NCBI GenBank assembly: GCA_964016885.1
Contig: OZ024762.1
Span: 12,710,001 to 12,774,000 of the forward strand
Direction: 5' to 3'
From: Eledone cirrhosa
Lineage: Eukaryota
Length of the DNA: 64,000 nucleotides
The notes below the pieces were generated by a model. That model ran no database searches, had not been told where the DNA came from, and saw only the letters and a list, made by a program, of their open reading frames with translations. A program made the position numbers and the translations under genes. Positions 31,792 to 52,929 of this stretch are shown here, one piece after another; position 1 is the stretch's first letter; every line of letters starts with the position of its first letter.

Positions 31792-34029
31792 ATAAGTGTG
31801 TGTGTGTATGTATGTATGTATGTATGTATGTATGTATGTATGTATGTATGTATGTATGTATATATATCGTCTAACCCATGCTAGCGTGGAAGATAGATGT
31901 TAAACGATGATGATGGTATATATATATTTAAGTATGTATAAGTATATATATAAATTTGTATGTATATATGTCTATATATATATATATATATATATATATA
32001 TATATGTTGTTATGAGAACAGTAGCTTCATATGTATTCCACCAAATTTATATTCATAGAAATCTGGGACTTGTTTCCTTCTTCATCACTTTCTGCTGCTT
32101 AAACCATTTTGTTTGTTTACCCTAGCGTCCCCTTTATTTACGTGTCCCAACGACTTTTTTTTAGCCGTTGCTCGCACCAACCTGAGGTATATGGCCTTTA
32201 ATGTGACGAAATGCCCATGACGGTTGGATGGCCACTGATGAGGACAAACTTTTTCATATATACACATATATACGTATGGTACAGCTTAAATTGGGCTATT
32301 TGTTTACAATGTATTAATGTGTCTGTATTCTATAGAATACAGACACATTAATACATATACCTCTACATACACTTATCTCTACAGAAAAAGTAGTAGTACA
32401 TATATATATATAACTGTATATGTACAGTAGGTGGTTTAACTTCTTAGAGCTACATTTATATAAATTAGGTTTGCATGTATCTAGATCTATTTATATAGAG
32501 GGAATGTATGCTTGTCTACAGAACAAAGTGTTAATATGTACAGTGAGAAACTTACTTCTTCAAAGGATGATAAGTTTATGTATATATATATATATATATA
32601 TATATATGTGGGTGTGTGTAATATAAAGAGAAATCATTTTAGAAAAGAAATACATTTATATATAGACAAGTATGTATATAGTGTCTAGAGGATAGGTTTC
32701 TAAAACAATTATGTAATTATTATATGTTGAGTGAAGTATTTTGTAGAGTTAACCTTATTTATATAGAATTTGAAGTTGGTGAAAATCGTAAAACTATTGA
32801 CTCTGTATATAGGTCGACCCCTTCTAACATCGAAGATTTGGTTATATATTCCTAGGCTTCTGTTTGTGTATATCCTGTTATATATATACAAAATACTAAC
32901 AGTCCTTTAATAGCTATATATCCTGTTATATATATACAATATACTAGTAGTCCCTTAATAGCTATATATCCTGTTATATATATACAATATACTAGTAGTC
33001 CCTTAATAGCTATATACCCTGTTATATATATATACAATATACTAGTAGTCCCTTAATAGCTATATATCCTGTTATATATATATATACAATATACTAGTAG
33101 TTCCTTAATGGCTATATATCCTGTTATATATATATACAATATACTAGTAGTCCCTTAATAGCTATATACCCTGTTATATATATATATATACAATATACTA
33201 GTAGTTCCTTAATAGCTATATACCCTGTTATATATATACAATATAGTAGTAGTCCCTTAATGGCTAATATAGTAGTAGTTCCTTAATGGCTATATACCCT
33301 GTTATATATATACAATATAGTAGTAGTCCCTTAATAGCTATATACCCTGTTATATATATATATATACAATATACTAGTAGTTCCTTAATGGCTATATACC
33401 CTGTTATATATGTACAATATAGTAGTAGTTCCTTAATGGCTATATACCCTGTTATATATATACAATCTATTAGTAGTTCCTTAATGGCTATATACCCTGT
33501 TATATATATACAATATACTAGTAGTCCCTTAATAGCTATATACCCTGTTATATATATATATATACAATATACTAGTAGTTCCTTAATAGCTATATACCCT
33601 GTTATATATATACAATATAGTAGTAGTCCCTTAATGGCTAATATAGTAGTAGTTCCTTAATGGCTATATACCCTGTTATATATATACAATATAGTAGTAG
33701 TCCCTTAATAGCTATATACCCTGTTATATATATATAAAATATAGTAGTAGTCCCTTAATAGCTATATACCCTGTTATATATATATACAATATACTAGTAG
33801 TCCCTTAATAGCTATATACCCTGTTATATATATACAATATACTAGTAGTCCCTTAATAGCTATATATCCTGTTATATATATATACAATATACTAGTAGTC
33901 CCTTAATAGCTATATACTCTGTTATATATGTACAAAATACTAGCAATTCTTCAATAGCTATATGCCCTGTTATATATATATATACAATATACTAGTAGTC
34001 CCTTAATAGCTATATAACCTGTTAGATAT

Positions 34030-34412
34030 AGAAATGGAATGACAGCGAGATAACAATGGGAATATGTTGTTATTTCACTCTTTACTTTCTTTTCTTTTAA
34101 AGAAAGAAAATGTTAGCTATAAGTATGACTATTTGACTCAGCAGAATTCCGGCTTGTGCGTGGCGGTGCAGGTAGCGTTCCTGGCTTGGCTGTCGTACTT
34201 ATGTATGGCTAACCACTCTATCGTGACTGAAGTTCGAATTGTTGTGGAGTCGGCTGGGTTCATTTGCAGGCTTGATCCTGGCGTGTCACGCGCATGAGTT
34301 TTTGCTACAGTTATCTCCCGTGAACTGGAATTATTTGCCCTTTGTGGAACTCTTCTTTCTTTGTTGTCTTTCTATTTAATGTATCGACCTGGTAACATCA
34401 TTCTATCTACAC
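34030..34412 (+). repeat. Module M copy 1 (5' part only)
   Basis: gaaatggaatgacagcgag...cattctatctacacc; nearly identical to 37262-37657. Confidence 0.9.
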
Positions 34413-35291
34413 CATTAAAGCCCGGTGTTGCTCGGGGTCAGTAAGTTACCAAAGTTAGGTTGCACCACCCATCTTATGACAGCACTTTTTTGTCTGCCAG
34501 GCACTGGGTGAATGAATTGCAGACATGGACTGCCGAAGCAGGAGCTGCGCCAGCAGTGACAATTATAGTTTCGCCTATGGATATTATCTCTGTGCAAAGA
34601 AGTGTTGAAATTTATTGTTTCACAGTACTTGCGCAACAAGCGCGTAGATGATGCCAGCCGAACAACAGAGCTGCGATGGAGTTCTGCATGGTTTTCTAAT
34701 GTGTGTTTTCTAAATTTAAGACAGTAGGGAGGGGTGTGATATGGGGGAGAGTTAGCTGCTGTTTCTAGCTAGTTTAGTTACCTCATAGGGCATATGTTTT
34801 CTAAATTTAAGACAGTAGGGAGTGGTGTGATATGGGGGAGAGTTAGCTGCTGTTTCTAGCAGGTTTAGTGACCTCATAGAGGATATTATTGTGTATAGTA
34901 AATGGACTGATACTTCTTTCTTCCACGTTCGTTGATAGATGTTTTAAAAAAGATTTATCGCTATTATTTTTGTTGTTGAATAAATTTATCTGTTGCTTTT
35001 GAATAATTTTTGTTTCGTATGAAATCTTTGTCATTGAAGTAAATAAATGTTTGACCGTTCCACACTCAAAAACAAATGTTCTCTCTCTCTCTCCCTCTCA
35101 CTCTCTTATATACCCTGTTATATATATATAGAATATACTAGTAGTTCCTTAATAGCTATATACCCTATTATATATATACGAAATACTAGTAGTTCCTTAA
35201 TAGCTATATACTAGTATTTCCTTAATAGCTATATACCCTGTTATATATATACAATATACTAGTAGTCCCTTAATAGTTATATACCCTGTTA

Positions 35292-49600: not shown

Positions 49601-51140
49601 TATATAACAGGGTATATAGCCATTAAGGAACTACTAGTATATTGTATATATATATATATATAACAGGGTATGTAGCTATTAAGGGACTACTAGTATATTG
49701 TATATATATAACAGGGTATATAGCCATTAAGGAACTACTAGTATATTGTATATATATATAACAGGGTATATAGCCATTAAGGAACTACTAGTATATTGTA
49801 TATATATATATATATATATAACAGGGTATATAGCTATTAAGGGACTCCTAGTATATTGTATATATATAACAGGGTATATAGCCATTAAGGAACTACTAGT
49901 ATATTGTATATATATAACAGGGTATATAGCTATTAAGGAACTACTAGTATATTGTATATATATAACAGGGTATATAGCTATTAAGGAACTACTAGTATAT
50001 TGTATATATATAACAGGGTATATAGCCATTAAGGAACTACTAGTATATTGTATATATAACATGGTATATAGCCATTAAGGAACTACTAGTATATTGTATA
50101 TATATATAACAGGGTATATAGCTATTAAGGAACTACTAGTATATTGTATATAAATAACAGGGTATATAGCTATTAAGGGACTACTAGTATATTGTATATA
50201 TATATAACAGGGTATATAGCTATTAAGGGACTACTAGTATATTGTATATATATAACAGGATATATAGCTATTAAGGGACTACTAGTATATTGTATATATA
50301 TAACAGGATATATAGCTATTAAGGAACTACTAGTATATTGTATATAAATAACAGGGTATATAGCCATTAAGGGACTACTAGTATATTGTATATATATATA
50401 ACAGGGTATATAGCTATTAAGGGACTACTAGTATATTGTATATATATATAACAGGGTATATAGCCATTAAGGAACTACTAGTATATTGTATATATATATA
50501 TAACAGGGTATATAGCCATTAAGGGACTACTAATATATTGTATATATATAACAGGGTATATAGCTATTAAGGAACTACTAATATATTGTATATATATATA
50601 ACAGGGTATATAGCCATTAAGGGACTACTAATATATTGTATATATATAACAGGGTATATAGCCATTAAGGAACTACTAGTATATTGTATATATATATAAC
50701 AGGGTATATAGCCATTAAGGAACTACTAGTATATTGTATATATATATATATATATATAACAGGGTATATAGCTATTAAGGGACTCCTAGTATATTGTATA
50801 TATATAACAGGGTATATAGCCATTAAGGAACTACTAGTATATTGTATATATATAACAGGGTATATAGCTATTAAGGAACTACTAGTATATTGTATATATA
50901 TAACAGGGTATATAGCTATTAAGGAACTACTAGTATATTGTATATATATAACAGGGTATATAGCCATTAAGGAACTACTAGTATATTGTATATATAACAT
51001 GGTATATAGCCATTAAGGAACTACTAGTATATTGTATATATATATAACAGGGTATATAGCTATTAAGGAACTACTAGTATATTGTATATAAATAACAGGG
51101 TATATAGCTATTAAGGAACTACTAGTATATTGTATATATA

Positions 51141-52262
51141 TACACGACAGAGGTTGGAGAAGAATGAAGCTACCATGGTTTAGTTTTAGAAGTGTCTAGT
51201 AGACAGAATAACTTTTATACATGTAACTTTGTGTTCACGTATCTTTATTCTGCCAGTAAAAACAAGATTGTATATAGTGTTGAGAAGGCTTCGTTATTAT
51301 TTTTAGAAAAGGTAGCTATGTACATCTATATATAAATATAGTGTCTAGCGAGGTTTAGTTGTGTCTTAGAACAAAATTTGTATATAGTTTCTACATAAGT
51401 ATAGCTTTATATGCATGTACGTCCCTAAAATTCTTCCAATATAGAGAAGATTGTAAAATATTTATATATGAATGTAGCTTCATGTGTATTTAACGTCTAT
51501 CTTCCACGCTAACTGTATATAGTGTTGAATGTAGAGGTGTATAAGAAACTGTATTGTGTAGAATATATATATTAATACCTTCTTATGGATATGAGAGAGA
51601 TATATAAATTCTTCCTGTACATGAAAGATAATAATACGTCTTAATTTGAATTTACGGCTTTAGATAGGTGGGTGTCTAGGGGATTTTTATGCTGAGAAGG
51701 AAGAATACATAGAGTTAAAAGTGTTTAGATATATTTACAAATGTAGCTTCGTGTATATATTTTGTATCTCAATATGTGATGTGTTTAGAATTAATTTATG
51801 GCAAATAATACTTTCCGTAACTCTCTCCGCGAATGTAAAATCCAGAATAATTTCGTCAAAGTCCCGGTGTAGATAGAATGATGTTACCTGTTCGATACAT
51901 TCAATAGAAAGACAACAAAGAAAGAAGAGTTCCACAAAGGGCAAATAATTCCAGTTCACGGGAGATAACTCTAGCCAATTTTTTTTTTAGCAAAACTCAT
52001 GCGCGGGACACGCCAGCCTGCAAATGAACCCAGCCGACTCCACAACGATTCGAACTTCAGTCGCGATAGAGTAGTTAGCCATACATAAGTACGACAGCCA
52101 AGCCAGGAACGCTACCTGCACCGCCACGCACAAGCCGGAATTCTACTGAGTCAACTAGTCGTACTTATAGCTAACATTTTCTTTCTTTTAAAAAGAAAGG
52201 AAAAGTAAAGAGTGAAATAACAACATATTTCGATTGTTATCTCGCTGTCATTCCATTTCTAT
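51141..52262 (-). repeat. Module M copy 5
   Basis: Nearly identical to copy 4. Confidence 0.92.
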
Positions 52263-52929
52263 ATATAACAGGGTATATAGCTATTAAGGGACTACTAGTA
52301 TATTGTATATATATATATAACAGGGTATATAGCTATTAAGGGACTACTAGTATATTGTATATATATATATATATATATAACAGGGTATATAGCTATTAAG
52401 GAACTACTAGTATATTGTATATATATATAACAGCATATATAGCTATTAAGGAACAACTAGTATTTTGTACATATATAACAAGGTATATAGCTATTAAGGG
52501 ACTACTAGTATATTTTATATATATATATATATATAACAGGGTATATAGCCATTAAAGGACTACTAGTATATTGTATATATATAAGAGGGTATATAGCCAT
52601 TAAGGGACTACTAGTATATTGTACATATATAACAGGATATACACAAATAGAAGCCTAGGAATATATAACCAAATATTCGATCTTAGAAGAGGGTCGACTT
52701 ATATACGGAGTTTGACGATTTTCACCAAATTCTATGTAAATAAGGTTAGCTCTACAAAATACTTCAGCAATGTTGGTATAGTCACTGCCTCTTCTCTCTC
52801 ACTATTACAAGTAAATGTGCACCTAGTGGACAGAATAGGGAAGGTGTTTCTCCGGAGTATGGTGAAGGAGTTCTAGCAAGTCATCACAATATTTCATCAG
52901 ATCAACATTAAAGGGAATCACCATTGTTA

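What the first reader, a model, noticed from the sequence alone, without database searches (positions are those of the whole stretch)
32732..52766. 20-kb foldback with three nested levels of repetition and no coding capacity
Seen: TIR-[48-bp array + module M]x2 > 1.9-kb core < [M + array]x3-TIR. The outer ~140-bp inverted repeats are visibly diverged with indels, while the M copies are nearly identical across both arms. The inverted repeat contains ccgtatataagtcgaccc, which from memory resembles Tc2/pogo-type termini. No TSD is evident, and a diverged M-like patch lies just outside the left end (~32630-32720). Established: Foldback/Galileo-type elements have long modular TIRs made of tandem repeats. 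Inference: an undescribed giant non-autonomous foldback, or an inverted macrosatellite homogenised by arm-to-arm conversion; a potential cruciform, dsRNA source or rearrangement hotspot next to TONSL.
Basis: partly seen in the sequence, partly recalled or inferred. Interest (0 to 1): 0.7.

Follow-up and report, generated by a model that had tools for sequence, protein, structure and literature searches.

The report
Overgrown copy of palindromic RNA-unit family
This 20-kb mirror-image stretch of an octopus-like genome is a swollen, likely decaying copy of a family of dozens of back-to-back repeat units on three chromosomes, whose arms are likely kept alike by copying from each other and at least one of which appears to make a spliced non-coding RNA; its ends did not pass the tests for a jumping gene.

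Summary
The palindrome is real, but 'no coding capacity' is wrong (a reverse-transcriptase fragment lies in the left arm) and the 'TIR' is not a transposon end: it is the inner two-thirds of a dispersed ~190-bp MITE, with no convincing target-site duplication, and the left flank is decayed family DNA. Module M belongs to a family: 82 exact hits of one 33-mer, 33 as convergent pairs 5-13 kb apart, almost all on three chromosomes. M looks like a CpG-rich promoter plus first exon ending in a splice donor. One public contig (run type not on record) skips exactly the predicted 1,076-bp GT-AG intron of a relative. The five M copies here are 95-99% alike but only ~83% like any relative; with one inverted spacer and long homogenised tracts in relatives, this points to arm-to-arm conversion. 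This copy has lost the donor, hairpin and second exon, and its 48-bp seed grew into 10.9 kb of satellite. Best reading: a palindromic duplicon spread by segmental duplication, not a foldback transposon. The scan earlier noted a 33.5-kb palindrome (e1-9510050) that is a dimer of this family. The inversion itself is not read-bridged.

The parts
32320..32731 (+).
   Evidence: 79% over 130 bp to a family copy on C558; 32640-32750 aligns to block A of relative E3, score 68 vs 33.7 +/- 4.6 (max 53 in 500 shuffles)
32732..32868 (+). Left 'TIR': ~19 bp specific to this copy plus the inner two-thirds of a ~190-bp TA-flanked MITE; the MITE's own terminus faces the array
32869..34030 (+). 48-bp array A1 (23 units)
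34031..34413 (+). M copy L1, truncated (decayed hairpin, T-run, TATA/Inr-like motifs, GC-rich exon-1-like part)
34414..35106 (-). 3' end piece of a high-copy non-autonomous Helitron-like repeat (hairpin present; the CTAG seen in 9 of 9 other copies is lost)
   Evidence: 1,689 candidates, 40 scored, 93-95% identity
35107..35292 (+). 48-bp array A2 (short, irregular)
35293..36768 (-). 5'-truncated LINE fragment with reverse-transcriptase frames, inserted in the array
36769..37263 (+). 48-bp array A3 (10-11 units)
37264..38386 (+). M copy L2, full length; splice donor of the family mutated
38387..38807 (+). Short array A4 and two duplicated fragments of distal M
38808..40719 (.). Spacer: single-copy 38808-39127, (AGTG)n(GTCT)n 39128-40335, single-copy 40336-40719
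40720..41575 (-). M copy R3 (distal end truncated)
41576..45516 (-). 48-bp array A5 (~77-80 units)
45517..46620 (-). M copy R2
46621..51142 (-). 48-bp array A6 (~91 units) with a ~35-unit higher-order duplication
51143..52259 (-). M copy R1
52260..52641 (-). 48-bp array A7 (7 units)
52642..52766 (-). Right 'TIR': mirror copy of the truncated MITE piece

Best explanation
This is a diverged, locally over-amplified member of a family of at least 37 palindromic duplicons on a few chromosomes, likely built by inverted and tandem duplication and likely kept alike by arm-to-arm gene conversion rather than moved by a transposase. Shown: each arm carries a module of AT-rich leader (with one seed copy of the 48-mer and an inserted MITE piece), a 26-bp hairpin, a T-run, and a CpG-rich ~350-bp stretch ending in a splice-donor motif; two modules face each other across a microsatellite spacer. 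Shown for one relative, by one contig: the donor is joined to a conserved acceptor. Inferred: the module is the promoter and first exon of a non-coding transcript; pairing of the arms drives conversion, occasional crossover (spacer inversion) and tandem re-duplication of [array+M]. Inferred for this copy: it lost donor, hairpin and second-exon blocks, its array expanded by unequal exchange into 10.9 kb of satellite, and a LINE and a Helitron piece entered the left arm; it is likely a decaying copy turning into a satellite locus.
For: Family: 82 exact hits of a 33-mer, 76 on C22/C23/C25, 33 convergent pairs vs 4 divergent and 1 tandem within 15 kb; 132 hits of a 19-mer, 100 listed; four more pairs seen in fetched DNA (this one, E10, G11, H11). 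Conversion: the five window copies form a 100/100 clade, 94.9-98.4% between arms vs 82.7-84.5% to the best relative; E1 100 vs 92.6, E3 99.8 vs 90.5, E10 98.9 vs 80; 8 informative sites group the window copies in incompatible ways; inner arms 87-100% alike while outer arm parts are 72-80%; of 24 main-subfamily elements 19 have the long outer arm on the B side, one (F1) has it on the A side only, and two (F5a, F9) have multi-kb homogenised tracts. Segmental spread: relatives share flanks at 91-100% and form head-to-head dimers. Transcription unit: identity among 8 lineages peaks at 0.81-0.90 in the core and falls to 0.2-0.5 after the donor; donor motif in 58 of 79 copies, 0 of 5 here; acceptor conserved in the 6 copies aligned, from 4 deep lineages; CpG o/e 1.1-1.25 vs 0.6; joint 4730->5807, 1,076 bp, GT..AG, in run X4 only, matching the predicted sites, traceable to one locus that has the intron, and absent from the assembly.
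Against: In only 9 of 24 relatives are the two arms closer to each other than to any other element's arm; the other 15 belong to young subfamilies whose copies are all 95-99% alike, so conversion is shown mainly in old lineages, and recent inverted duplication from one diverged copy gives the same tree. A 6-bp direct repeat flanks the window element if the ends are shifted by -2/+3 (1 of 169 offset pairs; chance roughly 0.1-0.2 by my estimate). The splice evidence is one contig of depth 10.4 with 22 letters on the short side, 8 of them ambiguous, from a run whose type is not on record. No contig bridges the inversion or the long arrays. One mariner HTH fragment lies between two partial M copies on contig C558. 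The 19 outermost bases tie to the left flank only through a 10-bp match after a 9-bp gap.
Confidence: 0.62

Rival explanations
1. An old non-autonomous foldback/MULE-type transposon (Pack-TIR-like, carrying a captured promoter and exon in both arms) whose true termini lie further out and have decayed; later spread by segmental duplication.
For: Long modular inverted arms with internal tandem repeats and a variable non-coding middle, as in Tetris (PMC4079207, passages); nearly always paired; one pair on another chromosome, C8; a 6-bp repeat near the ends; multicopy Pack-TIRs favour GC-rich cargo (PMC8277862, passages).
Against: No shared terminus on the short arm, and the long arm runs into shared repeats; no 8-10-bp TSD; copies share flanks and stay on three chromosomes; 1 of 102 ORFs from 942 kb around relatives hit a cut-and-paste transposase domain, and it is not shared.
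Confidence: 0.17
2. The unit is cargo of a giant Helitron-like rolling-circle element, which would explain the lack of TSDs and the ends in TA-rich repeats.
For: Pif1-helicase fragments lie in both outer arms of F9 and F11 and next to G8 and H1; tandem arrays of that fragment adjoin some members; a Helitron-like 3' piece is inside this copy.
Against: No hairpin-plus-CTRR end tied to the arms was found in 9 regions scanned (one hit, in a LINE tail); the helicase fragment belongs to a separate repeat family (1,950 candidates) and most members lack it; the Helitron piece here interrupts M.
Confidence: 0.09
3. The size or orientation of this particular locus is partly an assembly artefact (expanded arrays or a false inversion).
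For: Near-identical ~35-unit higher-order repeat; no contig spans the arrays or the centre.
Against: The five M copies differ by 1.2-4.8% in mosaic patterns; public contigs cover distal M at about 2-4 times the depth of the single-copy spacer and two bridge the distal-M fragment into the spacer (depth is not a copy number); the same layout occurs in dozens of other places.
Confidence: 0.08

Closest known systems
Foldback transposons such as Tetris of Drosophila virilis (PMC4079207, passages read) and FB4 / Ssk-FB4 Pack-MULE (PMC8277862, passages read)
   Same: Long modular inverted arms with internal tandem repeats, a non-coding variable middle, and a repeat unit that expands into kb-size satellite arrays.
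   Different: Tetris has 8-10-bp and Ssk-FB4 9-10-bp TSDs with distinct insertion sites; here no shared termini or such TSDs were found, copies travel with their flanks, and the arms hold a promoter/exon-like module.
Ampliconic palindromes of ape Y chromosomes (PMC7585023, passages read)
   Same: Inverted arms around a spacer, homogenised by arm-to-arm gene conversion, prone to rearrangement, multicopy.
   Different: Y arms are >99.9% identical and up to megabases long; here typical arms are homogenised over only ~1-1.5 kb at 87-100%, there are dozens of small palindromes on three chromosomes, and no protein-coding gene was found in the arms. Sex linkage was not tested.
TA-flanked Tc1/mariner-pogo-type MITE (superfamily label recalled, not from a call)
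   Same: The ~190-bp dispersed repeat has short TIRs and TA flanks in the aligned copies.
   Different: It is a passenger inside the arm; in this copy its outer third is deleted and its surviving end faces inward.

Membership tests
Foldback / MULE-type TIR transposon | Long inverted arms with internal tandem repeats and non-coding middle | tested here: met
Foldback / MULE-type TIR transposon | Termini shared among independent copies | tested here: not met
   Relatives continue beyond the window's 'TIR'; short-arm ends vary; long-arm end runs into shared repeats in 5 of 7 marker hits with a microsatellite tract
Foldback / MULE-type TIR transposon | 8-11-bp target-site duplication | tested here: not met
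   Longest direct repeat within +/-6 bp of the window's ends is 6 bp; relatives' ends were too ill-defined to test
Foldback / MULE-type TIR transposon | Transposase-coding relative with the same arms | tested here: inconclusive
   1 mariner HTH fragment among 102 ORFs from 95 loci; not all members were fetched and short or spliced frames were not scanned
Foldback / MULE-type TIR transposon | Presence/absence polymorphism with empty sites | not testable with these tools
   No related genome is held
Tc2/pogo-type element | Short TIR and TA duplication at the element's outer ends | tested here: not met
   The MITE terminus is deleted on the outer side and faces the array on the inner side
Helitron | 3' hairpin plus CTRR bounding the unit | tested here: not met
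   (9 regions scanned); only the internal 34414-35106 piece has Helitron-like relatives
Ampliconic palindrome maintained by gene conversion | Arms closer to each other than to paralogues | tested here: met
   This copy and 9 of 24 relatives; mosaic sites
Ampliconic palindrome maintained by gene conversion | Spacer inversion by crossover between arms | tested here: met
   1 of 24 main-subfamily elements, F1
Ampliconic palindrome maintained by gene conversion | Arms >99.9% identical over many kb | tested here: not met
   95-99% for M here; 87-100% over ~1-1.5 kb in most relatives
Ampliconic palindrome maintained by gene conversion | Arms carry an expressed gene | tested here: inconclusive
   One intron-skipping contig for one relative; donor lost in this copy; no conserved ORF
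Ampliconic palindrome maintained by gene conversion | Location on a sex chromosome | not tested
   No sexed coverage data were available

The most novel reading that the evidence does not exclude
An undescribed octopus multicopy non-coding RNA gene family: dozens of tail-to-tail promoter pairs on three small chromosomes, preserved by palindrome conversion, whose convergent or read-through transcripts form long double-stranded RNA feeding A-to-I editing or small-RNA pathways; this locus shows such a unit caught turning into a satellite.
Probability: 0.2. Interest if true: 0.75.

Novelty: new variant of a known kind. Interest (0 to 1): 0.5.

Why it matters
It gives a set of 37 or more small natural palindromes, of graded ages in one genome, in which conversion tract length, spacer inversion and satellite birth from a single 48-bp seed can be measured side by side, outside the mammalian sex-chromosome setting where this is usually studied. 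If the conserved promoter/exon core is under selection, it is a new multicopy non-coding RNA family and a natural source of double-stranded RNA in an animal group with extensive repeat-directed RNA editing (PMC9068888, abstract and passages). If not, it is a clear case of a foldback-like shape arising without a transposase.

Tried and rejected
Rfam: nothing at gathering score in this copy or in a canonical relative (only generic hairpin and TA-repeat miRNA models below threshold). Protein search with the 174-aa minus-strand frame of M from relative E5: 33 candidates, none at E<=0.01, lengths 95-305 aa only. Spliced-transcript translations for 6 members showed no conserved ORF; a ~20-codon frame in exon 2 is not kept in all lineages. 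Spacer as a Helitron insertion: rejected, both flanking pieces are single-copy. A joint 38795->37325 seen in runs X1-X3 comes from an unrelated locus on C3. M as the promoter of C2H2 zinc-finger genes: zinc-finger frames lie near only 4 of the fetched regions (E7, E9, F11, G8) and no M-like exon was tied to them. No RNA holder was listed for M; this is no evidence either way. Two short X4 contigs lie on this copy's M at depth ~2, too weak to use. Hairpin covariation: one compensatory pair in E1, otherwise perfect (24-26 of 26 pairs in 51 of 68 relatives) or decayed (13-15 of 26 here); one row of the alignment had wrong coordinates and was ignored. The higher-order-repeat identity script returned no rows; the unit code was used instead. 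Paper searches listed no description of this family (86, 'octopus foldback transposable', returned 0 papers); repeat libraries and supplements were not seen and may hold it. Scan look-ups returned nothing.
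Full report
Observation. Self-comparison confirms a 20,035-bp palindrome-like structure. The outer inverted repeat (32732-32868 vs 52766-52642) is 84% identical with 14 gap positions. Seven 48-bp arrays hold 219 unit pieces, 10.9 kb or 54% of the span. Five copies of module M are 95.2-98.8% identical on ungapped columns. 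The left outer M is cut by a 0.7-kb piece of a Helitron-like repeat with 1,689 candidates in the genome, of which 40 were scored at 93-95%. The spacer is two single-copy pieces around (AGTG)n(GTCT)n. The last TONSL exon ends about 2.4 kb upstream. The 82% match to an octopus protein is my basis for calling the genome octopus-like.

The 'TIR' is not an end. It matches a dispersed repeat (895 candidates, 40 scored). Alignment of 26 dispersed copies shows a ~190-bp MITE with its own short TIRs and TA flanks; the window keeps only its inner two-thirds, with the surviving terminus against the array. In relatives the same MITE piece sits inside a longer arm that continues outward through LINE and SINE scraps and older M copies (scrap classes recognised by eye). 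The window's left flank is itself decayed family DNA: 79% over 130 bp to a copy on C558, and an alignment to a relative's second-exon block scoring 68 against 33.7 +/- 4.6 in 500 shuffles. The best flanking direct repeat is 6 bp and needs shifted ends.

The family. M hits fall in convergent pairs elsewhere. An exact 33-mer occurs 82 times: 51 on C23, 14 on C22, 11 on C25, 2 on C8, 4 on small contigs. Of neighbours within 15 kb, 33 are convergent (5.0-13.1 kb apart), 4 divergent and 1 tandem. A 19-mer shared with older lineages occurs 132 times, 100 listed. With four more pairs seen in fetched DNA, there are at least 37 palindromes. Spacers are microsatellite plus AT-rich DNA; longer ones hold LINE insertions. 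Among 102 ORFs of at least 135 aa from 942 kb around relatives, Pfam found LINE, zinc-finger, Pif1 and GIY-YIG domains, a few host-type domains, and a single mariner HTH fragment on C558. Copies share flanks at 91-100% and form head-to-head dimers, so spread looks like segmental duplication. The 33.5-kb palindrome noted earlier by the scan (e1-9510050) contains mirror-placed family hits and is such a dimer (only its left 20 kb was fetched).

Homogenisation. In a tree of 58 M copies the five window copies form a fully supported clade, 94.9-98.4% between arms and 82.7-84.5% to the best relative. E1, E3 and E10 likewise have arms at 98.9-100% against 80-93% to others. Overall 9 of 24 relatives have arms closer to each other than to any other element; the other 15 are in young subfamilies where all copies are 95-99% alike. 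Eight informative sites group the window copies in incompatible ways. Inner arms are 87-100% alike while outer parts are 72-80%. One element has its spacer inverted relative to the outer arms and two have multi-kb homogenised tracts. Conversion and crossover between arms are inferred from these patterns; recent inverted duplication can mimic part of them.

What M is. In the family M starts with a 26-bp hairpin and a T-run, then TATA- and initiator-like motifs (motif names recalled), a GC-rich core with CpG o/e 1.1-1.25 against 0.6 around it, and a splice-donor motif where conservation falls off. Inward of one arm lies a conserved acceptor followed by AATAAA-containing DNA. After predicting these sites I laid four public runs on a canonical relative. 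Run X4 has one contig that skips 1,076 bp with GT..AG ends at exactly these sites; X1-X3 do not. Its tail and a 13-base difference trace it to one locus, C23:17.44 Mb, which has the intron in the genome, and the joined form is absent from the assembly. Limits: one contig, depth 10.4, 22 letters on the short side, run type not on record, one study. No conserved reading frame and no Rfam family were found. The window copy has lost the donor (0 of 5), pairs only 13-15 of 26 hairpin positions, and lacks both second-exon blocks in its spacer.

Mechanism, with status. Shown: layout, family membership, chromosome restriction, clade structure, loss of motifs here, LINE and Helitron pieces. Shown once, for a relative: intron skipping. 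Inferred: promoter function; arm pairing with conversion and crossover; tandem re-duplication of [array+M], supported by arrays A5 and A6 sharing their first units; array growth from the single seed unit present in old lineages by unequal exchange. Untested: cruciform formation, dsRNA, any effect on TONSL, and the physical reality of the inversion and array lengths (bridges only one inner junction).

Comparison. It works like a small ampliconic palindrome (PMC7585023, passages) and looks like a foldback (Tetris, PMC4079207, passages; Ssk-FB4, PMC8277862, passages), but fails the terminus and TSD tests for foldback membership and the arm-identity scale of Y palindromes. PMC9068888 and PMC12513265 (passages) describe coleoid gene arrays and repeat-directed editing but the passages seen do not mention this family. 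Searches listed no description; repeat libraries and supplements were not seen.

Verdict. Real, partly misread, and more informative as a member of an apparently undescribed family than as a single element. New variant of a known kind; interest 0.5; a 20% chance of a selected multicopy RNA family worth 0.75.

Noticed in passing
G000:C23:15.19-15.29 Mb and 17.45-17.57 Mb; also C18, C20, C25 (L141-L152, L206, L207): Tandem arrays of a ~8.3-8.5-kb unit carrying an internally deleted Helitron helicase fragment and TA-centred inverted pairs; 92 hits of one 30-mer.
   Followed up: partly
L044 / L194 (G000:C23:17437665-17439266): Unpaired family member whose exon 2 runs into the Helitron-fragment repeat; source of the intron-skipping contig in X4.
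   Followed up: yes
L204 (G000:C18:26055536): A truncated, diverged half of M that keeps the donor motif, on a chromosome without exact-motif hits; an X4 contig covers its junction with upstream DNA.
   Followed up: partly
window 13060-18384, minus strand: Apparently intact two-ORF LINE (622 aa zinc-knuckle frame; 1,152 aa endonuclease-RT frame) inside the TONSL region, next to a 72-bp array at 18544-20967.
   Followed up: no
window 38833-38867: 33-bp deletion in a contig of run X1 but not X2 or X3 of the same sample, likely an allele.
   Followed up: no
window 52935-53103: Old dispersed repeat (588 candidates, 69-80% identity) in the right flank.
   Followed up: no
G000:C23 near 6.397, 7.375, 11.80, 17.60 Mb (L104, L134, L132, L130): 88-bp tandem arrays inside short inverted repeats mark the long-arm ends and the centres of family dimers.
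   Followed up: partly
window 59925-60122: Single C2H2 zinc-finger-like frame below Pfam cut-off, probably a repeat fragment.
   Followed up: no
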